A stretch of DNA of 10,965 nucleotides from a virus, in the UHGV virus genome UHGV-1359962. One strand, 5' to 3'. Every line of letters starts with the position of its first letter. The first letter of the stretch is position 1. Position numbers and translations under genes: made by a program. The notes beneath the pieces are model-generated. The model saw only the letters and a list, made by a program, of their open reading frames with translations. It had not been told where the DNA came from and did no database searches. Below, in pieces: positions 1 to 10,965 of this stretch.

Positions 1-1347
1 CTTACTGGTCAGTTTGGTGACATGTTAGCCCGTATTGAGGCTGGGGAGTTTCCAGCAAGTACAATTTTGCTAGTTGAGAGTATCGACCGTATAGGCCGAT
101 TAGAGCATCTTGAAACAGAAGCCTTGATGAACCGCATCTTAGGCAACGGGATAGAGATTCACACATTGCAAGATGGCCTTATCTACACAAAGGATGCTTT
201 AGCCGATGACCTTGGCATAAGCATCATCCAGCGTGTCAAAGCCTACATAGCGCATCAGGAATCTAAGCAGAAATCTTTCCGTGTTAGTCAGAAGTGGGAA
301 CAACGTGCAAAACTTGCCCTTGCTGGTGAACAACGTCTTACAAAGATGGTTCCCGGATGGATTGACCCCGATACTTTCAAGTGCAATGAACACGCTGAGA
401 CTGTAAGACTGATTTTCAAGCTGCTGCTAGATGGTGAAAGTCTGCATAACATTGCACGTCACCTACAGGCTAATAACATTAGTTCATTCTCACGGCGTAA
501 AGATGCTAACGGGTTTAGTGTTCACTCTGTGCGTACTATCTTAAGGTCAGAGACAACGATAGGCACACTACCAGCATCACAACGCAATGACCGCCCCGCT
601 ATACCGAACTACTACGAAGCCGCTATAGATGTATCAACGTTCAATAAAGCTCAAGAGATTCTCGATAAAAACCGTAAAGGCCGTACACCTGCAAGTGATA
701 ACCCATTAACGATTAACATCTTCAAGGGATTATTCCGGTGTCAGTGTGGGGCTAGTGTTCACCCTACAGGGACTAAGAATAAGTATCAGGGTGTTTATCG
801 GTGCAATAACCATCTTGACGGTCGCTGTGATGTTCAACCGTTGAAGCGTAAACCGTTTGACCGATGGATGATTGATAATTTTCTGGGGATGATTGACGTG
901 GGGAATGATGGAGAATCAGAGAGGAAGATTGCAGCGTTACAGCATGAGGTTGAAATTGTCACAGCCAGAATCAAGAAAGCTACCGCCCTACTTCTTGAGA
1001 TGGATGATATTGATGAACTAAAAATTCAGCTTAAGGAACTGAACCAGAAGCGCACAGAACTACAGACCACGATTGATAACATGAGGCGTAAGGCTTCACT
1101 CACTGATAAGGAACTACCCCAGCTTAAAGATATTGACCTGACAACTAAAGCGGGTCGTGTCGAGTGTCAATTAATTTTGTCCAAACATCTAAAAGGGCTT
1201 ACATTGGGTAAGGATACGGTAACTGTAACGCTACAGAACGACACTGAAATAACCATACCTACAGACCCGCTACCGCTAAATGATGGAACATCAATCTTTG
1301 AAATTGCTGAGAAAAATCTTTTGAATATTGACACTTTCCAACTGTAG
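1..1347 (+). CDS. Large serine recombinase (integrase/resolvase family), C-terminal ~449 codons; 5' end runs off the window start
   Basis: Frame 1 is open from position 1 to TAG at 1345-1347. Translation shows the end of a serine-recombinase catalytic domain (TILLVESIDRIGR), a recombinase-domain-like block (ETVRLIFKLLLDGESLHNIARHLQANNI ... SVHSVRTILRSETTIGTL), a Cys-rich zinc-ribbon-like motif (FRCQCGASVHPTG...YRCNNHLDGRC) and a coiled-coil-like C-terminus (ERKIAALQHEVEIVTARIKKATALLLEMDDIDELKIQLKELNQKRTELQ). Family assignment is by motif recognition, no search run. Confidence 0.85.
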   Translation, partial: LTGQFGDMLARIEAGEFPASTILLVESIDRIGRLEHLETEALMNRILGNGIEIHTLQDGLIYTKDALADDLGISIIQRVKAYIAHQESKQKSFRVSQKWEQRAKLALAGEQRLTKMVPGWIDPDTFKCNEHAETVRLIFKLLLDGESLHNIARHLQANNISSFSRRKDANGFSVHSVRTILRSETTIGTLPASQRNDRPAIPNYYEAAIDVSTFNKAQEILDKNRKGRTPASDNPLTINIFKGLFRCQCGASVHPTGTKNKYQGVYRCNNHLDGRCDVQPLKRKPFDRWMIDNFLGMIDVGNDGESERKIAALQHEVEIVTARIKKATALLLEMDDIDELKIQLKELNQKRTELQTTIDNMRRKASLTDKELPQLKDIDLTTKAGRVECQLILSKHLKGLTLGKDTVTVTLQNDTEITIPTDPLPLNDGTSIFEIAEKNLLNIDTFQL

Positions 1348-1378: not shown

Positions 1379-2167
1379 TCAATATCTCTTGTTCGGATTC
1401 ACTGAGTACTTTTTAAGCTTTGAAGCTACCCGACCAGCGTTACTATTAGCATTGGTGACGTTGGTTTTTTCAGCTTCTGTTAAGTCTGAATAGTCCAGCT
1501 TCCAAGCCTTATTACATTTAATCTGAGCATCGAGAATATCATTTCTGATAGCTGGAGCGTAACCGGATACATCGCTAATATCCATTAGCTCTTTGCACGA
1601 TAGCATAGGCGCGTTATTGCGTTCAGTGGTCACGTTACCTGCATTCTTCTTACTGGTCACACCACCGTCATTAGTGGTAGCCGTTTTGCCAGTGGCAGCC
1701 GAAATATCAGTTTGCCCCACAATAGCTTTAAAGTTAATTTCCTGAAAAGTTAGCTGGATTCTCAGGCCGTTTGAAATACCAACATCTTTTGAGGCTTTAA
1801 AGCTCGTAATAATGGAATCATCAATTTTAATCCCATCTTTACAGATGACAGAAATAATCTGCTTCTGGTCACGCCAGTTTTCAAGGGTTTCGATGAAGTT
1901 TTCTACTAATTGACCCTGACGAGTTAATAATAAGCTTCCTTCATAGCCAACTACAACGACACCACTAATAGTGATTGTTCTGGGTGCTCTTTGCACATTA
2001 TCTGTGACAGTTTGCCCTGATTGCATGTTCTGTGTAGTCACCTGCATAGGACTATCAAATTCCATGTTTTCAGTTGCTGATAAGGTTAAGAAGGCATCTA
2101 CATTATCTCTTAAGTGGAAATAGATGCCATCTTTGCCACTGTAACGAATCTGATTAGAGTAAATCAT
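1379..2167 (-). CDS. Hypothetical protein, 262 aa, immediately downstream of the tape-measure-like gene; tail-associated role is possible only by position
   Basis: ATG at 2167-2165 preceded by AAGGAG (complement of 2174-2179) with 6-nt spacing. The ORF-track start at 2188 is a TTG and is less likely. Stop TGA at 1381-1379. No recognisable domain; the sequence has a hydrophobic beta-like stretch ([18 protein letters not shown]) and a Thr/Asn/Gly-rich segment. Confidence 0.6.
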
Positions 2168-2242: not shown

Positions 2243-2289
2243 CTCTGTTAAGCGTGAGCTACGTAAATTCTATTTTTCAGTGCGGGTAT
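2243..2289. promoter_or_regulatory. Conserved ~45-bp element (CTCTGTTAAGCGTGAGCTACGTAAA ... GGGTAT), copy upstream of the 262-aa gene
   Basis: 25-nt block identical to 4519-4543, followed by a similar ATTTTT..GGGTAT tail. Lies in the 135-bp gap between the TMP-like gene stop (2324) and the 262-aa gene start (2167). Confidence 0.45.
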
Positions 2290-2323
2290 TAACTTTGCTT
2301 TATTCACGTAGAACACCGTTAAA

Positions 2324-4504
2324 TCAATCATCTTCTGGGAATGATGAACTTAATAACGTAGCTTCTGCATATTGGTCGTAGATATTACTGCTAAAGGTCA
2401 TAAAGCTGGTTTCATCTGGTTTAATGGCAACTTCACCACCAAGTGAAACTTTCACAGGCTCCTGAATACGCTTACTTAAAGCAGAGATTTCATCCCTCAG
2501 ACCCTGAATATCTGCACTCGTTAATGATGCATCTTGTTTCATGGTAATTAATTCTGGATGATTGAATCTTGCAATATTCATTGTGGCATTGTTAAACAAT
2601 TCACCCATTGAACTAAAAATCCTGCCCCATCCTTCGTTAATCATATTCGGTTTATTAGGGTCACCAGAATACACAGGATTAAAGTCACTACCCACACCTA
2701 CCCCAGATGGATGCATATTAGCGTTTTTGACTACTTCCTGATTCATAAAATCCAGTGCTTTCTTCAATGCATATAAACCAAGAGTGACACCTCTGATTTG
2801 TGGAATCATTGAAGCTAATGCTAACGCTGTTTCATAACCGTCATCAGCATAACCAATTGCAAGAGCACTACCTACACCACCAGCTACACCTTTCAGTTTT
2901 CCACCACCTTTACCAGTAGCTACCTGACCAGCCACCTGATTAGCTCTTGTACCTAACGTTGTGATTGCTCTTGTCAGGTTCATAACCCCTGTAGTAGCAC
3001 TGAATAGTGTCTTTGCAGATAACGCTATAGCAAGACCTTTGACAAAATTGATAAAACCATCACCGACTTCATCAAGTAGTTTTCGTTTAGTGTCATCAAG
3101 GCTGTAATAGAACTTCTTAGTCTGTAGAATCCAGCCTTCAAGGTGATTGTTAAAGATACGGATGTCATCTACACCAGCTTTAAGCATGTCGATAAGTCCA
3201 CCGATAGCATCACCAGCGATAGAAGAACTCATACCCATTTCACTAAGCAGGTTACTCAGGCTGGATAAGAAGCCGTTTAGCTCATCCTGTGAACCTGAGA
3301 AGATTTTCACCATCGTATCATCCCAGTTGTTAGCCAGTTTCCCTAAAGCTGTCTGAGTGCTCTTAGCGACTTCAGCCCAGCCACCCGCTTTATCAATCAT
3401 CAAGCCCATCTGTTTAGCGACTTTAGGGAGAGTATCACTACTTAAAATCTTCCCGTTTTTCATGGCTGCATCAAGCTCTGTAGCAGTCATACCCAGTGCT
3501 TCAGCGAATAGCTTAAATGCACCAGCCATACGGTCACCTAACTGTCCACGAAGCTCTTCAGCCTGAATCTTGCCCTTAGAAGCCATCTGCTCAAAAGCTT
3601 TCAAAATGCCGTTTAGCTCGTCGTTAGAAAGCCCCATTAAGCGACTCATAGCCGTTGCATTACCAAATAGTTCCTGTGTCTGTTCCTGTGACATAGAACC
3701 CTGAGCACCTGCTGCAAACTTAGCGTAGCTTGACAGCCCTTCAGAGATATTAAGACCTGTCTTGTCTGCTAAATTTCGAATAAATACCTCAGCCTCAGAT
3801 GCTTTATCACCAAGTACAAACTTAGCGGCTCTCTGTGCGGAATCTCGTTTAAGACCTGCATTCATAATGGCCTTGTAAGCGTTAAGAGCACCCATCACAG
3901 AGTAAAATGCACCAGATAATTTAATTGCATTGCTTGCAAGATTATTAAATGCGTCGCTTGTATTATTAATGCTGGTGGTCTTTGTCTGTGACCTGAGTTT
4001 ATTCAACGTTTCACGAAGAGATTGATTTAATTTTGCAAGTTCAGCGTTAAACTTTTCACTTCCAATATTACCAGCCTTGCCGCTTAAACTGTAATATTGT
4101 GCTTTAAACATTTTAGCCATCAGCGGATTAATATCACCAAGCTTAGACATATTCACACTATGCGCTGCTGTGATTGCTCTGTTTCCGCTAATTCGTGGCT
4201 GTCTTGGTTGTTTTGGAGGATTGATAACGTCATTAACCTGACTTGTGAAACGGAAAACTCTAGTGTTTTTTGCTCTAGCTTCCAGACGGTCAAAGGTCTT
4301 ATTAAACTTCCTTTCAAGTTGCCCTAAAGAACTTGTCAGATTGCTGTCAAGTTGCTTGGTATCGACCTTAAACGCTCTATTCAAATTACGTTCAATTCTT
4401 TGTGCTGACTGCAAAGCTGCCTTTTCAACTCTTTGCAAGCCCTTAATAACGTTCTCGCTGAAGCCTAGCTCAACGATAAAACTATCAACTTTAAATTGTG
4501 CCAT
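2324..4504 (-). CDS. Phage tail tape-measure-like protein, 726 aa
   Basis: Long ORF, ATG at 4504-4502, stop TGA at 2326-2324. Predicted helical N-terminal half. The segment MSRLMGLSNDELNGILKAFEQMASKGKIQAEELRGQLGDRMAGAFKLFAEALGMTATELDAAMKNGKILSSDTLPKVAKQM resembles the conserved tape-measure domain as I recall it, and Gly-rich hydrophobic stretches (GQVATGKGGGKLKGVAGGVGSALAIGYADDG) are typical of TMPs. The SD-like GAGGTG lies 11 nt upstream of the ATG, so the exact start is uncertain. Confidence 0.75.
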   Translation of the reverse strand: MAQFKVDSFIVELGFSENVIKGLQRVEKAALQSAQRIERNLNRAFKVDTKQLDSNLTSSLGQLERKFNKTFDRLEARAKNTRVFRFTSQVNDVINPPKQPRQPRISGNRAITAAHSVNMSKLGDINPLMAKMFKAQYYSLSGKAGNIGSEKFNAELAKLNQSLRETLNKLRSQTKTTSINNTSDAFNNLASNAIKLSGAFYSVMGALNAYKAIMNAGLKRDSAQRAAKFVLGDKASEAEVFIRNLADKTGLNISEGLSSYAKFAAGAQGSMSQEQTQELFGNATAMSRLMGLSNDELNGILKAFEQMASKGKIQAEELRGQLGDRMAGAFKLFAEALGMTATELDAAMKNGKILSSDTLPKVAKQMGLMIDKAGGWAEVAKSTQTALGKLANNWDDTMVKIFSGSQDELNGFLSSLSNLLSEMGMSSSIAGDAIGGLIDMLKAGVDDIRIFNNHLEGWILQTKKFYYSLDDTKRKLLDEVGDGFINFVKGLAIALSAKTLFSATTGVMNLTRAITTLGTRANQVAGQVATGKGGGKLKGVAGGVGSALAIGYADDGYETALALASMIPQIRGVTLGLYALKKALDFMNQEVVKNANMHPSGVGVGSDFNPVYSGDPNKPNMINEGWGRIFSSMGELFNNATMNIARFNHPELITMKQDASLTSADIQGLRDEISALSKRIQEPVKVSLGGEVAIKPDETSFMTFSSNIYDQYAEATLLSSSFPEDD

Positions 4505-4518
4505 TGTTCATATTTCAC

Positions 4519-4563
4519 CTCTGTTAAGCGTGAGCTACGTAAAAAATAATTTTTGGTGGGTAT
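4519..4563. promoter_or_regulatory. Conserved ~45-bp element, copy abutting the RBS of the TMP-like gene
   Basis: CTCTGTTAAGCGTGAGCTACGTAAA at 4519-4543 is identical to 2243-2267, and the tail ATTTTTGGTGGGTAT matches ATTTTTCAGTGCGGGTAT. It ends 14 nt from the TMP start codon. Confidence 0.45.
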
Positions 4564-4595
4564 ATCTGTTCAGAAGATTTCACGTAGCACACATA

Positions 4596-4638
4596 CAAAA
4601 AAGGGAGAAACTACCGAATAATATCGATAATCTCTCCC
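4596..4638 (-). terminator. Candidate rho-independent terminator (minus strand) after the 71-aa gene
   Basis: On the minus strand GGGAGAGA (complement of 4638-4631) pairs with TTTCTCCC (complement of 4610-4603) around a 20-nt loop, followed by TTTTTTGT (complement of 4602-4595). The loop is long, so the call is tentative. Confidence 0.4.
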
Positions 4639-4686
4639 CGTGTTATAGATTCGATAGAACCTATCTCATACACCCAACCAATTCTT

Positions 4687-4902
4687 TTAATGCATGACAA
4701 GATAATGTAGTTCCGTTTCACCTATGATTTGAGCATCAGAAGGAATACGGTCGATACACCATTTTGGAATCTTGCGTGTTTTTGGTTTGCGTGAGGTGAT
4801 AATTTGATGTTTGGTTTTAATTCTTAAGACTGGCTTAGTTTGTAACTTTAAGTTTTCACAAACAGACTTAATAGTTTCATAGCGTTCTGTTAAATCAATC
4901 AT
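4687..4902 (-). CDS. Small basic hypothetical protein, 71 aa
   Basis: ATG at 4902-4900 preceded by GAGGTGA with short spacing. It starts 22 nt after the stop of the 234-aa gene (operon arrangement). Lys/Arg-rich middle (KTKHQIITSRKPKTRKIPKW). No domain recognised. Confidence 0.5.
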   Translation of the reverse strand: MIDLTERYETIKSVCENLKLQTKPVLRIKTKHQIITSRKPKTRKIPKWCIDRIPSDAQIIGETELHYLVMH

Positions 4903-4924: not shown

Positions 4925-5629
4925 TTAAACAGCCTTGCTAAATTCTCGTGGAACACTCAGAAAATCATTGAAGCTGATAATCTGTGCCAACTCTTGACGG
5001 TACTCCTTAGCCAGCGCTTGATGGTCACTAATCAGCTTAGCCAGTCTTGATTTCAGCAAATTAATCTCATTTTCTCTTGCTTTCATCAGTTTCTCTTTGG
5101 CAATTTCTTCAAGCTCAGCTTGTGATTTATCAGCAACAATTAGAGACAGTCGATGTGGTGCTCTGACAGCTCTTTCTGTACGAACAACTCTTTGACCTTC
5201 TGGTAAATCTGCAATCACTTTACCAATCTCTACAGGGTCATACCCCCAACCGTCACGGTCTAGTCGAGAGAAATAAGCATAAGAATTGGTTTGAAGCTCC
5301 ATCAAAATAGCCATTTCGTCAATTTCGTCTTCAAGTTTGGACTGAATTTTCTCGTAAACACTTCTCATTGCTTCTTGAGAGTCTCGAAGGTCTTTGAAAT
5401 ATTTGCGTTGCAGCTTCAGTTTCAAATCAAGCTCACATTCCTCATTCATCGAAAAATCAATTTCAACTCTTGGAATCTCGATTGGTTCTGGTGGAATATA
5501 TGGACCTTTATTTACTTCGTGCGATTCCCGCCAAGCTCTATCAAAAGATTCACGCAAAGTTAATTCGTGAATATCAAGTGCACTTGGTCTGTTCTCAACA
5601 ATCATTTCGTGTTCATTACGAATGGACAT
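4925..5629 (-). CDS. Acidic coiled-coil-like hypothetical protein, 234 aa
   Basis: ATG at 5629-5627 with AGAGGAA upstream; stop TAA at 4927-4925. Charged, heptad-like regions (EAMRSVYEKIQSKLEDEIDEMAILMEL; ELEEIAKEKLMKARENEINLLKSRLAKLISDHQALAKEYRQELAQI). No family recognised. Confidence 0.7.
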   Translation of the reverse strand: MSIRNEHEMIVENRPSALDIHELTLRESFDRAWRESHEVNKGPYIPPEPIEIPRVEIDFSMNEECELDLKLKLQRKYFKDLRDSQEAMRSVYEKIQSKLEDEIDEMAILMELQTNSYAYFSRLDRDGWGYDPVEIGKVIADLPEGQRVVRTERAVRAPHRLSLIVADKSQAELEEIAKEKLMKARENEINLLKSRLAKLISDHQALAKEYRQELAQIISFNDFLSVPREFSKAV

Positions 5630-5877
5630 TAATATTTTCCTCTTCTAAGATAATTTATGTTTCAGTTTTTAAAAAGCACACCTGACAGCCTACGAACTTA
5701 GAAGAGACTTAAAAGCGTTTGCCAAGTATGCTTTTTAAAAGCTGAAAAAAGCCCTAAACATAGGTGATTCGGATATTCATGGAATCATCCTCATCTGTGA
5801 AGGGCTTTGAAGGTTTGCTTTAACGTTAACGAAGTTTCAGGAAAAACTTTCTTTAAAAGCTCTGTTTAAAAACTCTT

Positions 5878-6687: not shown

Positions 6688-6975
6688 CTAATTTCTCTTA
6701 AAGTCTCGGACTTGCATAAGATTTTTTGGTCTGGTATCGGCTCTGTTACCATTTCGATGGATAATTTGCTTGTTGGATTGATAGCCATGATAAAGGAACC
6801 AGACAACATATTTCACGTAGAAAGTATATCGGCCTATATTAAATGTTTTGTTGCCGTAGTCGTCGGTATTTATCGTGACTGACTCTCCATCAGACCAGTA
6901 CAGGGAATCACTGGATTCATCATAGATAAGGTGTTCTGTAAAATATCGTCTAACATCTTCATGCCAAGGTTTCAT
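6688..6975 (-). CDS. HNH_3-like (homing-endonuclease-type HNH) small protein, 95 aa
   Basis: ATG at 6975-6973 with strong GGAGG 4-5 nt upstream. Motifs LIYDESSDSLYWSDGESV and IHRNGNRADTRPKNL resemble the HNH_3-type nuclease signature (His ... GN ... N-L) as I recall it. Shorter than typical members. Its start overlaps the upstream gene stop (ATGA). Confidence 0.55.
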   Translation of the reverse strand: MKPWHEDVRRYFTEHLIYDESSDSLYWSDGESVTINTDDYGNKTFNIGRYTFYVKYVVWFLYHGYQSNKQIIHRNGNRADTRPKNLMQVRDFKRN

Positions 6976-8023: not shown

Positions 8024-8071
8024 TCATAAGCCAGTCCTTATAATTGTTAATTCTCTGTTAACTTATATACA

Positions 8072-8100
8072 ATACTAGCATTTTCAAAGACTAATGTCAA
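8072..8100 (-). promoter_or_regulatory. Candidate sigma70-type promoter for the minus-strand operon
   Basis: On the minus strand: -35 TTGACA (complement of 8100-8095), 17-nt spacer, -10 TAGTAT (complement of 8077-8072). Confidence 0.5.
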
Positions 8101-8107
8101 GCATTTT

Positions 8108-8137
8108 TTAACATTTCATTAACATCTGTGGTATAAT
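8108..8137 (+). promoter_or_regulatory. Candidate plus-strand promoter with extended -10, divergent from the operon promoter
   Basis: -35-like TTAACA (8108-8113), 18-nt spacer, TG at 8129-8130 and -10 TATAAT at 8132-8137 (TGgTATAAT). Confidence 0.55.
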
Positions 8138-8219
8138 GGTTTTATGGGGAGAGTAAAATATGAGGCGTGGCTATGAGGTATCAACTATCGAGAATGGCCG
8201 CATGGTTATTGCATTGCAC

Positions 8220-8318
8220 ACAGACCTCTTCAATCGCTCTGTAACGAGTTAAATGGCCTCTTCAGGTCAACTCATAAGGTCAGGTACTTTTTGTGTCAGA
8301 ATGCGATTGAGAGCGTCT
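8220..8318. repeat. Copy 2 of the paired element, within the leader of the membrane-protein gene
   Basis: Blocks at 8230-8248 and 8298-8318 are identical to copy 1. Located between the plus-strand promoter and the ATG at 8333. Confidence 0.6.
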
Positions 8319-8332
8319 TACAAGGAAATTTA

Positions 8333-8521
8333 ATGGTAAATCTCCCTCCTGAACTGGGGTCACCTGATGTATGGGCTGGTGGAGGTGTTGGACTTATTGC
8401 GGGTCTGCTGCTTCGCTATTTCATCGTCAGAGTGTTTATCGTGTTCAGATTGTTTGGTCGTGAATGGTCGTTTGACCTCAAGGACAGGACCAGAACAGAC
8501 AACCACACAGAACCCCGCTAA
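8333..8521 (+). CDS. Small membrane protein, 62 aa, one predicted transmembrane helix
   Basis: ATG at 8333 with AAGGA 6 nt upstream; stop TAA at 8519-8521. Translation MVNLPPELGSPDVWAGGGVGLIAGLLLRYFIVRVFIVFRLFGREWSFDLKDRTRTDNHTEPR has one hydrophobic helix followed by a charged C-terminus. Preferred over the alternative frames at 8291 and 8367 because of the RBS and protein-like composition. Confidence 0.5.
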   Translation: MVNLPPELGSPDVWAGGGVGLIAGLLLRYFIVRVFIVFRLFGREWSFDLKDRTRTDNHTEPR

Positions 8522-8534
8522 ACTCCCTTCAAAA

Positions 8535-8575
8535 CCCCTATACCATCTCGTACAGGGGTATCTTTAGCATTTTGT
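8535..8575 (+). terminator. Candidate terminator after the membrane-protein gene
   Basis: Stem CCCCTATAC (8535-8543) / GTACAGGGG (8550-8558) with one mismatch, then a T-rich tail TATCTTTAGCATTTTGTG. Confidence 0.35.
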
Positions 8576-8635
8576 GCTATCTATTAAAAAACGGCTTGAC
8601 AGAACCGGAAAGCTGTATCTATCAAGTATTCACCT

Positions 8636-8816
8636 CTCTGACAGTAATTTCTAAAAGTTCTTATTTTTCAATGAGTTGTAATTAGCCAATATAAAGGACT
8701 GACAAGACCCTTCACAATTAACTCTGTAACCTTAACAGTAATTTCTAAAAATGCTTATTTTTCAATAAGTTGTAATCACCCAATATATAAGACTGTCCAG
8801 TACCTTCACAGATAAC
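8636..8816. repeat. Two tandem direct repeat units of about 86 and 95 bp
   Basis: Unit 1 (8636-8721) and unit 2 (8722-8816) align along their length. Shared blocks include CAGTAATTTCTAAAA, CTTATTTTTCAAT, AGTTGTAAT and GACTG.C.AG..CCTTCACA..TAAC. Confidence 0.7.
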
Positions 8817-9603
8817 TTCAAGCCCTCTTAACCGCCCCACTAATCGGGAGAAGAGCGATAACCCCAGAGAGGGAAGCTCCCTTCTTAATCGGCCTCCTAA
8901 CCAGTCTTTACAAACCTTGTTCAAGGTAATCACAATAGTTTTTCTTCCCTCGGTTTCCTGTGTTCCTCGGTTTATCTATTGAGACTTGAAAGACCTCTGT
9001 AAGTGCTCTCTTAGCGAGAGAAAAATCATTCATAGTGACCCCAAGCGAAGTGCCCCTCTAAAAAGATTTTTTAGCTATTTTGCTTAAAACCATATCAAAC
9101 GATACATTTTATTGATTTAGGTCAAAGACAAAAACATTGACAAAATGGTATGATTGTTCACATGACCTTACTTAACAGATTCTTAAGAGCTTTGAAACGA
9201 CCTACTTAACAAGGTCACTACCTCTGGTCTTATCGTTCCCTTCTTTCTAGGTAGTCATCTGTTAAGAACTTTTCAGTTTTATTCTTAAGATAATTGTTAA
9301 GATGATACTCTCCCTTCGGGTTATATCGTATCTCTTCCCCCGTTAAACACTCCTTCCTAACAACTTCATAGTTATCTGTCAAGTACCTTTGAAGATTCTA
9401 TCAAGACCTCTAAATCTGACCTGATATAGATGCTGTGAAGGCATGTTCTCTAGGTCTGTGTAGCTTACTTAGTGGGAAGAGAGGGTGATACATGAGAAAG
9501 AACCCCTCCTACTTAAAAGAATTATTTGACATTATTGTGATGGTTATTTAAGATGCAACTGTACAGACACCTTCATCGGTTTCTCTACACCTTCCTATGG
9601 CTT

Positions 9604-9664
9604 GGTCTGGCTAGGTAGGGTGGGGTCTGGTTAGGTAAGGTGGGGTATGGTTAAGTGTGGGTGG
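9604..9664. repeat. Three tandem ~20-bp iterons
   Basis: GGTCTGGCTAGGTAGGGTGG (9604-9623), GGTCTGGTTAGGTAAGGTGG (9624-9643), GGTATGGTTAAGTGTGGGTGG (9644-9664). Confidence 0.75.
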
Positions 9665-9696
9665 ATTGTCGTAGCCACGTTAAAAATCGACTTATA

Positions 9697-9720
9697 GGGA
9701 CTCTTTCGGGAGTCCTTTTT
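9697..9720 (+). terminator. Rho-independent-type terminator hairpin with UUCG loop
   Basis: GGACTCT (9698-9704) pairs with GGAGTCC (9709-9715) around the loop TTCG (9705-9708), followed by TTTTT (9716-9720). Confidence 0.55.
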
Positions 9721-10791
9721 AGTTTGTATAAAATCTGTACAGTAACTTTTCAGATTCTGAAAATTTTTATAAAAAAATAATCAGGCCTCTTCTAAGTCTC
9801 TTCAACCAAATCTTTCAAAAATATCTACACTCAATTGATGGCTGTTAAGTACCCCAGATTCACGATATAGCACCCCCTTTGCAAAAGCAGTTAAAATATC
9901 TATAACCAACTATTGACTTTCTTCATAGCATCTGTTAAGTCCACCTCAAGAAACCTTCATCACACTTCAAAGCATCTATCAAGAAGGTTTAACCTATCAA
10001 TAGCTGTAACATTTTGTAGTTCTGTGAAGTCCTATCCAGTTTTCTCTGTAACAGACACAAACTTCTGCGACCTTATGTATCAATGACTTAGAATACATGC
10101 TCTCAAGGTTCTGTATAGTCTCTTATCTTCAAATACACAAAACCCTTATAAATCAGTACTGATACGTATACAGTTCGTTTTTAACATAATGGCTGTTTTA
10201 CGCACTAATCGTGTTCTACATGAAATCTGTATAGATATTAAGGTGTCTGTAAGTGATTTTTTAAGAAGGGACTACGAAGATTTGACAAGGTAACTATGAG
10301 GTTGATTCCTAGAACAACCGAATCAACTATAACCATCACTTTTCAATATTCACGCAGGATATCGTTAAGTTTCTTGATAGTTACACCATGTGACCAACTG
10401 CATAGATAGCGTTATATACTCCTGTATATATCACTTTTCTAGGAGTCTGGAGAGGGACGACTAACACGATACAGTTTACCCTGAAAAGAGACTTCACAGA
10501 TTCTTTATATATTTCAATAAGTTATGCTAAAAAGAGACTATACCGATACTGCATAGAATCTGTGTAAAACTGCTTAGATACTTGGGAAAATGCCTTTAAA
10601 TTGCATAGTCATAGGGGTTGGAACAAGCCCAACTTCACCTGATATTGTCCTGTAATTAACAGGTTTCTTAGAAAACCGAATAGACTTCATTCAAGGGTCA
10701 TTGTATTGTAGCTATTCGGCATTGTAGCATTAGCCATAACGTTTATAAGTTCATCTTTAAATGATAATCAATTGCATGGGAGTTTATCACC

Positions 10792-10965
10792 ATGAGACAC
10801 GTAATTACATACCTTCGGTACAGTTCAGCCATACAAGGCGCTGAAGGTGCTGATTCAACCAGACGACAAAATGAGCTATTCAAACAGTGGTTAAGGAAGA
10901 ATAGCGATGCTCAGGTAGTTGCGTCTTTCAGTGATGAAGGGTTGAGTGGTTACAAAGGTAAGCAC
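10792..10965 (+). CDS. Serine recombinase N-terminal catalytic segment (58 codons); 3' end runs off the window end; probably the same gene as 1-1347
   Basis: ATG at 10792 preceded by GGGAG (10779-10783). Translation MRHVITYLRYSSAIQGAEGADSTRRQNELFKQWLRKNSDAQVVASFSDEGLSGYKGKH carries the serine-recombinase N-terminal signature (Y-x-R-x-SS-x-x-Q with the presumed catalytic Ser, later D-x-G-x-SG). The frame ends exactly on a codon boundary at 10965. Confidence 0.7.
   Translation, partial: MRHVITYLRYSSAIQGAEGADSTRRQNELFKQWLRKNSDAQVVASFSDEGLSGYKGKH

What the first reader, a model, noticed from the sequence alone, without database searches (positions are those of the whole stretch)
2324..4504. Orphan tape-measure-like gene without the rest of a tail module
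A 726-aa protein with a tape-measure-type conserved segment and Gly-rich hydrophobic stretches is present, but I see no tail tube, sheath, chaperone pair, baseplate or fibre genes. It is flanked by a coiled-coil protein and a small basic protein upstream and a 262-aa protein downstream. A mobile element carrying only a TMP-like gene could be retargeting helper-phage tail assembly or tail length, or the domain may be used for something other than tail building. I know of no standard precedent, so this is speculative.
Basis: partly seen in the sequence, partly recalled or inferred. Interest (0 to 1): 0.65.

Follow-up and report, generated by a model that had tools for sequence, protein, structure and literature searches.

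The report
Tail-core genes on a Felix-O1-phage satellite
The gene is a genuine, intact phage tape-measure gene, paired with a second tail gene, on a small mobile island of E. coli that has no other virus-particle genes, so the island is most likely an undescribed parasite ("satellite") of Felix-O1-type lytic phages that swaps its own core into the phage's tail.

Summary
ORF 2324-4504(-) is a real 726-aa tape measure protein (TMP). It hits Pfam TMP_3, TIGR02675 and PHROG 4036, and its nearest solved relative is Felixounavirus Bas63 gp17.

It is not an orphan. The downstream 262/269-aa protein is a homologue of the Bas63 tube initiator gp18 (Dit_like). Its tube-like domain is 97% identical to the phage protein, and its C-terminal extension is replaced.

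The window is a circular permutation of a complete ~11-kb element. It holds a 13-bp att core and a 506-aa large serine recombinase that spans the window ends. The element has no tube, sheath, chaperone, capsid or terminase gene. Integrated copies sit exactly at the tonB start codon.

Related TMP+initiator DNA occurs in 452 of 5,426 complete E. coli genomes. Relatives also occur in Shigella, Citrobacter and Salmonella. Both genes are under purifying selection.

The best reading is a satellite of virulent Ounavirinae phages that builds chimeric tails. This was shown experimentally in 2026 for Vibrio PLE and phage ICP1, where the satellite replaces the phage's TMP and its Dit_like protein BhuB. 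Induction, incorporation into tails and packaging are inferred here, not shown.

The concept is therefore known. This family and its apparent helper were not found described in the searchable library.

The parts
2324..4504 (-). Tape measure protein, 726 aa, a mosaic homologue of Felixounavirus gp17
   Evidence: PF20155 76.6 bits; TIGR02675 at aa 289-356; PHROG 4036 4e-95; 9ndy_F 1e-73. Against phage garuso: aa 1-47 79% identical, core 289-356 63%, last 11 aa 64%, the rest 21-36%. dN/dS within the family is 0.30-0.35.
1379..2167 (-). Tube initiator / Dit_like baseplate-hub protein, 262 aa from the ATG (269 aa if the TTG at 2188 is used), homologue of Felixounavirus gp18
   Evidence: PF21821 2.4e-20; 9ndy_A 3.3e-115; PHROG 3721 1.4e-130. 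aa 13-185 are about 97% identical to the phage protein. Nucleotides 1634-2143 are 88-96% identical to 212 Felixounavirus records. The C-terminal extension, aa 186-269, is divergent apart from the ...SVNPNK(R/K) tip. dN/dS is 0.02-0.05.
4519..4590 (-). About 70-nt conserved element directly upstream of the TMP start. It ends in the 25-nt box TTTACGTAGCTCACGCTTAACAGAG (4519-4543).
   Evidence: The box is repeated exactly before the tube-initiator gene; 0 matches are expected by chance. It is also present in L001, L003 and L005. It is not found in phage garuso. Function unknown; a promoter or regulatory site is inferred.
2243..2315 (-). Second copy of the same conserved element, upstream of the tube-initiator gene (box at 2243-2267)
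4602..4639 (-). Strong intrinsic-terminator-like hairpin (16-pair stem plus T run) between the 71-aa gene and the TMP regulatory element
4687..4902 (-). 71-aa basic protein, present in all six family members compared, function unknown. It is a candidate accessory factor of the tail module, either a chaperone substitute or an Rta-like inhibitor (speculative).
   Evidence: 72-99% identical in L001, L003-L006 and L024. Homologues occur only in Escherichia, Shigella and Citrobacter. AF2 pLDDT 73.5, with no fold match.
4925..5629 (-). 234-aa all-helical (coiled-coil-like) protein, function unknown; two alleles about 26% identical exist in the family
   Evidence: It occupies the position held by the capsid gene in the unrelated E. 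coli satellites of PMC10448857.
6209..8023 (-). Upstream gene block: 118-aa protein, HNH_3 endonuclease (6688-6975, 95 aa), 71-aa, 92-aa and 185-aa proteins
   Evidence: HNH_3 PF13392 1.8e-8; the others have no family hit. The 185-aa protein has more than 1,000 hypothetical-protein relatives (90%-identity clusters) in Escherichia, Shigella and Salmonella.
9604..9691 (+). Non-coding array of 20-nt repeats (GGTCTGGTTAGGTAAGGTGG x2.5) plus a 38-nt conserved tail, similar to an intergenic array in Ounavirinae phage genomes
   Evidence: 75-84% identical to Felixounavirus and Suspvirus intergenic DNA, for example tootiki 10135-10226 and garuso 5652-5719. Replaced by other sequence in L001.
10691..10703 (.). 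13-bp attachment core TCAAGGGTCATTG (attP-type junction of the element's right and left ends)
   Evidence: The same core flanks integrated copies as attL and attR and occurs once at the empty K-12 site, where it contains the tonB ATG.
10792..10965 (+). 5' part of the large serine recombinase gene; it continues at window position 1
   Evidence: The circular join gives a 506-aa ORF 95% identical to the recombinase of L001.
1..1347 (+). 3' part of the large serine recombinase (Resolvase + Recombinase + Zn_ribbon_recom domains)
   Evidence: PHROG 95 integrase 3e-63
8641..8817 (.). Two tandem copies of a 94-nt unit in the ORF-poor region; possible origin or packaging site (inferred)
   Evidence: both copies are conserved in L001, L003, L015 and L017

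Best explanation
The 726-aa ORF is a functional tape measure gene. With the adjacent tube-initiator gene it forms a two-gene tail-core module. The module is carried by an ~11-kb integrative element that has a large serine recombinase, inserts at the tonB start codon in E. coli, and has no other virion genes.

The element is most likely a satellite of virulent Ounavirinae phages (Felixounavirus, the Felix O1 / Bas63 type). The proposed mechanism has five steps:
1. The helper phage infects the cell.
2. The element excises. Its recombinase is of the type that needs a directionality factor for excision. None was recognised here; in PLE the phage supplies it.
3. The element expresses its own TMP and tube initiator.
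4. These two proteins keep the segments that must dock onto helper parts. These are the TMP N-terminus, the TMP core, the extreme TMP C-terminus that contacts the hub and puncture device, and the whole tube-like domain of the initiator. They therefore seed tail assembly on the helper's hub and are finished with the helper's tube, sheath, wedge and fibres. The result is a chimeric tail in which the phage's own TMP and initiator are replaced.
5. This diverts tail production to particles that carry the element, lowers the helper's yield, or both.

Shown here: homology, the mosaic pattern of conservation, purifying selection, the attP junction and precise att sites, and the spread and modularity of the family.

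Inferred by analogy with PLE/ICP1: induction by the phage, incorporation into tails, packaging and transduction.
For: 1. Identity of the two genes. They are in the same order as in the phage (TMP, then gp18 homologue).

2. Selective conservation. TMP aa 1-47 are 79% identical to the phage although synonymous sites are saturated (dS 1.36, dN 0.14). The core 289-356 is 63% identical. The tip LLSSS[FY]PE[DE][DE] is conserved, while the remaining segments are 21-36% identical. In Bas63 the C-terminal 25 residues of the TMP contact the puncture device and the hub (PMC12609058). The initiator's tube-like domain is 97% identical and its 100-aa baseplate-spanning extension is replaced.

3. Exchange with phages. 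Window 1634-2143 is 88-96% identical in nucleotides to 212 Felixounavirus records, with sharp borders. The same tract is present in a Salmonella relative.

4. Both genes are kept. dN/dS is 0.30-0.35 for the TMP and 0.02-0.05 for the initiator. An identical TMP is present on 17 contigs. Related DNA occurs in 452 of 5,426 complete E. coli genomes, always chromosomal.

5. It is an element, not a prophage. There is an attP junction in the window, clean attB/attL/attR sites, a size of 11.0-11.8 kb, and host genes on both sides. GC is 39.7%, against 38.9% in the phage and 49% in the flanks.

6. The only other similarity to the phage genome is non-coding.

7. Experimental precedent. In PLE11 virions, mass spectrometry found PLE TMP and PLE BhuB and no ICP1 TMP or BhuB, and deleting the PLE tmp cut transduction by 100-fold or more (PMC12987554). 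ICP1 BhuB (gp78) belongs to the same Pfam family, Dit_like, as the protein here. PLE also uses a large serine recombinase (my knowledge of the PLE literature).
Against: No experiment links this element to any phage. No tail assembly chaperone, capsid, capsid-size, terminase or recognisable packaging signal was found. No recognisable replication initiator was found in this window either.

The element does not occur in the 50,697 phage records. Its attP junction was not found in IMG/VR or JGI metagenome contigs. There is therefore no evidence that it is ever packaged.

The replaced C-terminal extension of the initiator could just as well make a dead-end (poisoned) baseplate. The TMP length is almost that of the phage, so the reading predicts no visible tail phenotype for this allele. 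One Citrobacter copy has its TMP split by an IS21-type insertion.
Confidence: 0.6

Rival explanations
1. Defence only. The element's TMP and tube initiator are dominant-negative 'poison' subunits. They dock onto the helper's hub but cannot complete a working baseplate or tail. Infected cells then release tailless or defective Felixounavirus particles. The island spreads vertically or by other routes and is not packaged.
For: No capsid, packaging or chaperone genes are present. The initiator's baseplate-spanning C-terminal extension and most of the TMP are replaced while the docking segments are kept. Tail-assembly interference is an established defence strategy: Tai systems (PMC11364771) and Rta of PLE11 (PMC12987554). 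No trace of the element was found in phage or virome collections.
Against: PADLOC finds no defence model. The replaced segments are themselves under strong purifying selection and are conserved within the family. In the one tested system the satellite TMP and BhuB are built into infectious particles (PMC12987554). The element is found in four genera, and relatives use different recombinases and sites, which implies efficient horizontal transfer without conjugation genes. Interference and hijacking are not mutually exclusive.
Confidence: 0.2
2. Sensor or decoy. The tail proteins are not structural here. They act as bait that binds a phage tail component (a chaperone, the hub or the tube), and that binding triggers another effector of the island, such as the HNH endonuclease or the small membrane protein, to abort infection.
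For: The island carries an HNH_3 endonuclease and a conserved 62-aa membrane ORF. Many defence systems sense structural proteins (stated in PMC11364771).
Against: A full-length 726-aa TMP with a conserved hub-contacting tip, plus a complete tube-like initiator domain kept at 97% identity, is far more than a bait needs. Three unrelated satellite lineages carry the same pair, and in PLE the pair is structural. No known sensor domain is present.
Confidence: 0.08
3. Decaying remnant of a prophage or of captured phage DNA, with no present function.
For: Only two virion genes are present. A 2.8-kb stretch (8024-10790) has no ORF above 76 aa. One relative has an IS in the TMP.
Against: The ORFs are intact, with dN/dS of 0.02-0.35 across relatives. 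The same gene set recurs in hundreds of genomes and four genera. The att sites are precise and an excised or tandem junction is present. Ounavirinae are 86-kb virulent phages with no integrase.
Confidence: 0.03

Closest known systems
[quoted passage not shown]
   Same: A small island with a large serine recombinase that parasitises a virulent myovirus. It carries its own TMP plus a Dit_like protein encoded right after the TMP (ICP1 gp78/BhuB and the protein here both hit PF21821). It has no tube, sheath or fibre genes and carries a nuclease gene. In PLE the two proteins replace the phage's in chimeric tails.
   Different: There is no detectable sequence relationship beyond the shared Pfam domains. 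No tail assembly chaperone was found here, and no recognised RepA_N initiator or capsid-size factor. The host is Enterobacteriaceae and the apparent helper is Felixounavirus. The initiator here is 75% identical to the phage's (BhuB of PLE11: 41%), and part of it is nearly identical at the nucleotide level. Nothing here has been tested experimentally.
[quoted passage not shown] 2023, PMC10448857)
   Same: 10-14-kb E. coli islands with the same layout: integrase, then on the other strand a Dit_like 'baseplate protein', a TMP and a small ORF (L008). They lack most tail genes.
   Different: No protein of the window resembles any protein of L008 (BLASTP, nothing below E = 0.08). Those islands carry a major capsid protein, a decoration protein and a RepA_N-type initiator. 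[quoted passage not shown]
Felixounavirus tail core: TMP gp17 and tube initiator gp18 (Bas63 cryo-EM, PDB 9NDY, PMC12609058)
   Same: Direct homologues, in the same gene order. The initiator's tube-like domain is 97% identical, and the TMP N-terminus, core and C-terminal tip are conserved.
   Different: The genes are encoded on a chromosomal island without the chaperone genes gp15/16 or the other 20-odd virion genes. 60-70% of the TMP and the initiator's C-terminal extension are replaced.
Tail-assembly-inhibition defences (Tai in PICIs, P4-like satellites and prophages, PMC11364771; Rta of PLE11)
   Same: They are carried by mobile islands and act on the tail-assembly step of an infecting phage. 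The ICP1 TMP region where Rta-escape changes map (aa 314-387) aligns with aa ~287-353 of this TMP, its conserved core.
   Different: Those are small inhibitors, not homologues of tail structural proteins. No Tai or other defence model hits here. Whether the 71-aa protein is an Rta-like inhibitor could not be tested.

Membership tests
Tape measure protein (Pfam TMP_3 / Felixounavirus gp17 type) | Profile match to TMP families above the curated cutoff | tested here: met
   PF20155 76.6 bits against cutoff 41; TIGR02675 55.7 against 21.35; 11 PHROG TMP families, best 4e-95
Tape measure protein (Pfam TMP_3 / Felixounavirus gp17 type) | Homology to a TMP seen inside a solved virion tail | tested here: met
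   9ndy_F, Bas63 gp017, 1e-73, with N-terminus, core and C-terminal tip aligned
Tape measure protein (Pfam TMP_3 / Felixounavirus gp17 type) | Preceded by a tail assembly chaperone pair (programmed frameshift) and followed by hub or initiator genes | tested here: inconclusive
   It is followed by the initiator homologue, as in the phage. No chaperone homologue lies upstream: the 71-aa and 234-aa proteins do not match the phage chaperones, and a terminator separates them from the TMP.
Tape measure protein (Pfam TMP_3 / Felixounavirus gp17 type) | Present in the tail lumen and setting tail length | not testable with these tools
   Needs virion proteomics and electron microscopy
Tube initiator / Dit_like (Bas63 gp18; ICP1 BhuB) | Dit_like (tube-fold) N-terminal domain | tested here: met
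   PF21821 73.4 bits against cutoff 24.2; 9ndy_A 3.3e-115; ICP1 gp78 hits the same family
Tube initiator / Dit_like (Bas63 gp18; ICP1 BhuB) | C-terminal extension of about 100 aa that spans the baseplate | tested here: inconclusive
   An extension of the same length is present, but it is only about 30% identical to the phage's. Just the C-terminal tip is conserved.
Phage satellite (generic) | Integrase, defined att sites and the ability to excise | tested here: met
   A 506-aa large serine recombinase; a 13-bp core at attB, attL, attR and the attP-type junction inside the window
Phage satellite (generic) | Lacks the full set of genes for its own particle | tested here: met
   Only the TMP and the initiator are recognisable virion genes
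Phage satellite (generic) | Sequence traces that tie it to one helper lineage | tested here: met
   88-96% nucleotide identity to 212 Felixounavirus records over 510 nt, plus a phage-like non-coding repeat array
Phage satellite (generic) | Induced by, packaged by and transferred with a helper phage | not testable with these tools
   No packaged or virome copy was found. Absence there is weak evidence only.
PLE family (Vibrio) | Homology of the core genes (RepA_N initiator, TcaP, NixI, TAC and others) and synteny with PLE1-11 | tested here: not met
   PLE sequences themselves were not compared. No RepA_N or other PLE-type domain was found. The TMP and Dit_like proteins resemble the ICP1 (helper phage) proteins only at domain level. 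The resemblance to PLE is functional, not membership.
E. coli satellites of Barth et al. 2023 | Shared proteins (capsid, decoration, RepA_N, TMP) | tested here: not met
   All-against-all BLASTP with L008 gave nothing below E = 0.08. The window has no capsid or decoration gene.
cfPICI / PICI / P4-like satellites | Capsid module with terminase small subunit (cfPICI), Pri-Rep and alpA (PICI), or sid, psu, delta and alpha (P4) | tested here: not met
   No such Pfam, PHROG or NCBIfam hit
Known anti-phage defence systems | Match to a PADLOC model | tested here: not met
   No hit except a chance-level one for the HNH protein

The most novel reading that the evidence does not exclude
This is a third, independently evolved lineage of satellites, after PLE and the Barth-type E. 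coli islands, that replaces exactly the same two tail parts: the TMP and the Dit_like tube initiator. It is the most minimal of the three, at ~11 kb with no capsid, chaperone or packaging gene. It parasitises virulent Felix-O1-type phages and is present in roughly one in twelve E. coli genomes as well as in Salmonella, Shigella and Citrobacter.

If so, the TMP/initiator core would be a general 'ownership tag' of a tail. It would let a satellite block the helper's own tail core with a small inhibitor, for which the conserved 71-aa protein is a candidate, while its resistant copy still assembles. The swapped central TMP segments among family members would then record that arms race.
Probability: 0.35. 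Interest if true: 0.75.

Novelty: new variant of a known kind. Interest (0 to 1): 0.6.

Why it matters
Felix O1 and its relatives are among the phages most used for Salmonella and E. coli typing, biocontrol and therapy. An island that tampers with their tails could lower their yield or turn them into carriers of bacterial DNA. Related tape-measure and tube-initiator DNA occurs in about 8% of complete E. coli genomes.

The family would also give a genetically tractable E. coli model for chimeric-tail assembly, which so far has been shown only for Vibrio PLE and ICP1. Three unrelated satellite lineages have converged on the same two tail proteins. That raises a direct question about tail assembly: which contacts of the tape measure and the tube initiator decide whose tail gets built?

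Tried and rejected
Searches and tests that led nowhere:
- The attP junction was searched as an exact pattern in IMG/VR and in JGI metagenome contigs. Neither gave a match, so the source of the circular form is unknown.
- The whole window against plasmids gave no match.
- Rfam gave nothing credible.
- The 234-aa protein has only hypothetical relatives, no PDB sequence match, and an AF2 model with pLDDT 55 that is too poor for fold search.
- The 71-aa protein has an AF2 pLDDT of 73.5, but Foldseek against PDB and BFVD gave nothing below E = 0.3. The Rta sequence is not in the papers held, so an Rta comparison was impossible.
- The 185-aa and HNH proteins have no meaningful phage relatives. No Odn-like phage nuclease sharing a domain with the island was found.
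- The 25-nt box before the TMP and the initiator is absent from phage garuso. Its RNA fold is no better than shuffles (z about -1).
- A CAGATTCT motif repeated in the island's non-coding region is not a phage-wide motif.

Checks on the helper hypothesis:
- I tested whether divergent family members copy other phage genera. The initiators of L006 and the Citrobacter copy are only about 70% identical to Suspvirus. The TMP of L005 is under 30% identical to any phage. No cognate helper could be named for those.

Readings rejected: a prophage fragment, a member of the Barth-type satellites, cfPICI, PICI or P4, and a known defence system.
Full report
**1. The observation**

ORF 2324-4504 on the minus strand encodes 726 aa without interruption. 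It is a tape measure protein (TMP) by every profile tried:
- Pfam TMP_3, 76.6 bits against a cutoff of 41.
- TIGR02675 at aa 289-356.
- Eleven PHROG tape-measure families, the best at 4e-95.

The closest solved chain is the tape measure gp017 of Felixounavirus Bas63 (9ndy_F, 1e-73).

The protein encoded next is 262 aa from the ATG at 2167, or 269 aa from the TTG at 2188. It hits Pfam Dit_like. It matches the Bas63 tube initiator protein gp018 at 3.3e-115. In Felixounavirus genomes that gene follows the tape measure gene directly. In the Bas63 structure it forms the hexamer that adapts the threefold hub to the sixfold tube (PMC12609058).

**2. The element**

The window is a circular permutation of a whole mobile element.
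- Positions 10691-10964 match the DNA that immediately precedes window position 1 in integrated relatives.
- A single 13-bp core, TCAAGGGTCATTG at 10691-10703, joins the element's right end to its left end.
- The same core flanks integrated copies on both sides.
- It occurs once in the empty site of E. coli K-12, where it contains the tonB start codon.
- A 506-aa large serine recombinase gene runs across the window ends, 10792-10965 then 1-1347.

The window therefore shows an attP-type junction, from an excised circle or a tandem array. A 13-bp repeat is shorter than typical assembler k-mers, so the junction is unlikely to be an assembly artefact (my inference).

Integrated copies are 11.0-11.8 kb and lie between tonB and yciI, with ordinary host genes on both sides and no further phage genes. 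The element's GC content is 39.7%. Its chromosomal flanks have 49% and Felixounavirus garuso has 38.9%.

**3. Gene content**

Everything except the recombinase is on the minus strand. In order of transcription:
- proteins of 185, 92 and 71 aa;
- an HNH_3 endonuclease of 95 aa;
- a 118-aa protein;
- after a 580-nt gap, a 234-aa helical protein and a 71-aa basic protein;
- a strong terminator;
- the tape measure gene;
- the tube-initiator gene.

None of the unnamed proteins hits Pfam, PHROGs, NCBIfam or PADLOC convincingly. There is no tube, sheath, chaperone, wedge, fibre, capsid, portal or terminase gene.

Positions 8024-10790 hold no ORF above 76 aa. An exact 25-nt box, TTTACGTAGCTCACGCTTAACAGAG, lies inside a ~70-nt repeat just upstream of both tail genes. 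The two genes seem to share one control element, whose nature I could not determine.

**4. Relationship to Felixounavirus**

Against the complete genome of phage garuso, only the two tail proteins match. The tape measure is a mosaic:

| TMP segment | Identity to phage garuso | Note |
|---|---|---|
| aa 1-47 | 79% | synonymous sites saturated (dS 1.36, dN 0.14) |
| core 289-356 | 63% | TIGR02675 domain |
| last 11 aa | 64% | LLSSS[FY]PE[DE][DE] |
| all other segments | 21-36% | |

In Bas63 the C-terminal 25 residues of the tape measure are the part seen touching the puncture device and the hub.

The initiator's tube-like domain, aa 13-185, is about 97% identical to the phage protein. Window 1634-2143 is 88-96% identical in nucleotides to 212 Felixounavirus records, with sharp borders. 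Its C-terminal extension spans the baseplate next to the spacer protein in Bas63. In the element that extension is replaced except for its tip. A Salmonella relative carries the same high-identity tract.

The pattern is what one expects of proteins that must still dock onto phage-made partners but are otherwise free, or pressed, to differ.

Apart from a few short, weak patches nearby, the only other similarity to the phage is non-coding. A 20-nt repeat array plus a 38-nt tail at 9604-9691 is 75-84% identical to an intergenic array in Felixounavirus and Suspvirus genomes.

**5. The family**

- The identical tape measure is on 17 contigs.
- DNA related to the two-gene module is in 452 of 5,426 complete E. 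coli genomes, always chromosomal, with up to three places per genome.
- Relatives occur in E. albertii, Shigella, Citrobacter and Salmonella. This is also the host range of the Ounavirinae records seen.
- Selection is purifying: dN/dS is 0.30-0.35 for the tape measure and 0.02-0.05 for the initiator.

The family is modular:
- Three recombinase types, 28-35% identical to one another, use other sites.
- There are two alleles of the 234-aa protein, about 26% identical.
- Cargo varies (small resolvase, Dam methylase, a 322-aa HTH protein).
- Tape measures of 682-726 aa have central parts swapped while their ends stay identical.

One Citrobacter copy has its tape measure split by an IS.

**6. Most likely mechanism**

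A closely parallel system has been worked out experimentally. PLE islands of Vibrio cholerae parasitise the virulent myovirus ICP1. They encode a chaperone, a tape measure and a baseplate hub protein, BhuB. PLE11 virions contain the PLE tape measure and PLE BhuB and none of the ICP1 versions. Their tails are 10 nm shorter. Deleting the PLE tape measure gene cuts transduction by 100-fold or more (PMC12987554).

ICP1 BhuB is gp78, encoded right after the tape measure. It belongs to the same Pfam family, Dit_like, as the protein here. The same pair, next to the integrase, is also found in the unrelated putative E. coli satellites of Barth et al. (PMC10448857).

I therefore read the element as a satellite of Felixounavirus-type phages that supplies its own tail core and completes it with helper parts. 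Homology, mosaic conservation, selection, mobility and distribution are shown. Induction, incorporation, packaging and transfer are inferred. Confidence is about 0.6.

For this allele, tail-length change is not expected. It has 726 aa against 735-742 aa in the phage.

**7. Rivals**

- **Defence by poisoned assembly without transfer (0.2).** It fits the lack of any packaging or capsid function, the replaced initiator extension, and my failure to find the element in phage or virome collections. It does not explain the element's spread across genera without conjugation genes. It is also not exclusive of hijacking.
- **Bait or sensor role (0.08).** This is hard to square with full-length, highly constrained structural proteins.
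- **Decaying remnant (0.03).** It is contradicted by the selection and distribution data and by the fact that Ounavirinae are virulent 86-kb phages without integrases.

**8. Membership**

The gene is a member of the TMP_3 tape-measure family, and its neighbour is a member of the Dit_like tube-initiator family.

The element is not a member of the Barth-type E. coli satellites; no protein similarity was found. It is not a cfPICI, PICI or P4-like element, nor a known defence system. No PLE-type domain was found and the host is different, so I do not file it under PLE; PLE sequences themselves were not compared. It works like PLE as far as sequence can tell.

Full-text searches found no paper describing a satellite of Felixounavirus or an island at tonB with these genes. 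This covers only the open-access library.

**9. A link worth testing**

Substitutions that let ICP1 escape the PLE11 inhibitor Rta fall in TMP residues 314-387. By pairwise alignment these correspond to about aa 287-353 here, the conserved core. That core and its surroundings are what is swapped between members of this family. A 71-aa protein of unknown fold is present just upstream of the tape measure in all six relatives compared. Whether it is an Rta-like inhibitor or a chaperone substitute is open.

**10. Verdict**

The interpretation points the right way, but a precedent now exists. The finding is a new, common and apparently undescribed family that fits a recently established kind of system. 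Interest is 0.6.

Noticed in passing
window 10691-10703 and the window ends; L022 775-800: The window is a circular permutation with an attP-type junction. The 13-bp core contains the tonB ATG. Integration therefore detaches tonB from its native promoter region. In K-12 that region holds the Fur-regulated promoter (from my own knowledge, not tested here). After integration it lies on the attR side, pointing into the element's right end, and element DNA sits directly upstream of tonB.
   Followed up: partly
window 9604-9717: A non-coding array of 20-nt repeats (GGTCTGGTTAGGTAAGGTGG x2.5) plus a 38-nt conserved tail is 75-84% identical to an intergenic array in Felixounavirus and Suspvirus genomes. 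A hairpin with a T run follows at 9696-9717. In relative L001 the slot holds a different sequence. It could be a phage-responsive promoter, an origin or a protein-binding site through which the island senses or uses the helper.
   Followed up: partly
window 2243-2315 and 4519-4590 (minus strand): A ~70-nt repeat ending in an exact 25-nt box lies just upstream of both the tape measure and the tube-initiator genes. A strong terminator at 4602-4639 insulates the tape measure gene from the genes upstream. The box is absent from the phage genome examined.
   Followed up: partly
window 8024-10790: A 2.8-kb stretch has no ORF above 76 aa. It contains a 94-nt tandem repeat (8641-8817), divergent sigma-70-like promoters at 8072-8137, and a conserved 62-aa single-pass membrane ORF (8333-8521, plus strand; 98% identical in L011). 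Relatives carry a small resolvase, a Dam methylase or a 322-aa HTH protein in this region.
   Followed up: partly
L005, L006, L004, L024 against window 2324-4504: Family members have tape measures of 682-726 aa. In L005 and L006 the first ~60 residues are identical to the window's, and in L005 also the last ~80, yet their central parts are only 22-62% identical. This suggests repeated cassette exchange inside the gene. Recombinases of three types, 28-35% identical to one another, go with different insertion sites (the Salmonella copy lies near wrbA/yccJ).
   Followed up: partly
L020 10001-14041 (Citrobacter sp. ANG330): This copy of the element has its tape measure gene split by an IS21-type insertion (two ORFs of 340 and 259 aa).
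   Followed up: no
L023 (Vibrio phage ICP1) 1192-4995: The homing endonuclease that splits the ICP1 tape measure gene sits exactly in the conserved core (window TMP aa ~315/316). The Rta-escape region of ICP1 maps to the same core (window aa ~287-353).
   Followed up: partly
L001 17194-17904: RefSeq annotates the alternative allele of the 234-aa helical protein as 'transposase'. No Pfam family supports that name.
   Followed up: yes
phage records GU169904.1 and MG065664.1: Records named 'Staphylococcus phage SA1' and 'Campylobacter phage A132' contain Felixounavirus-like tail genes that are 90% or more identical to E. coli and Salmonella phages. These are probably contaminated or mislabelled records.
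   Followed up: no
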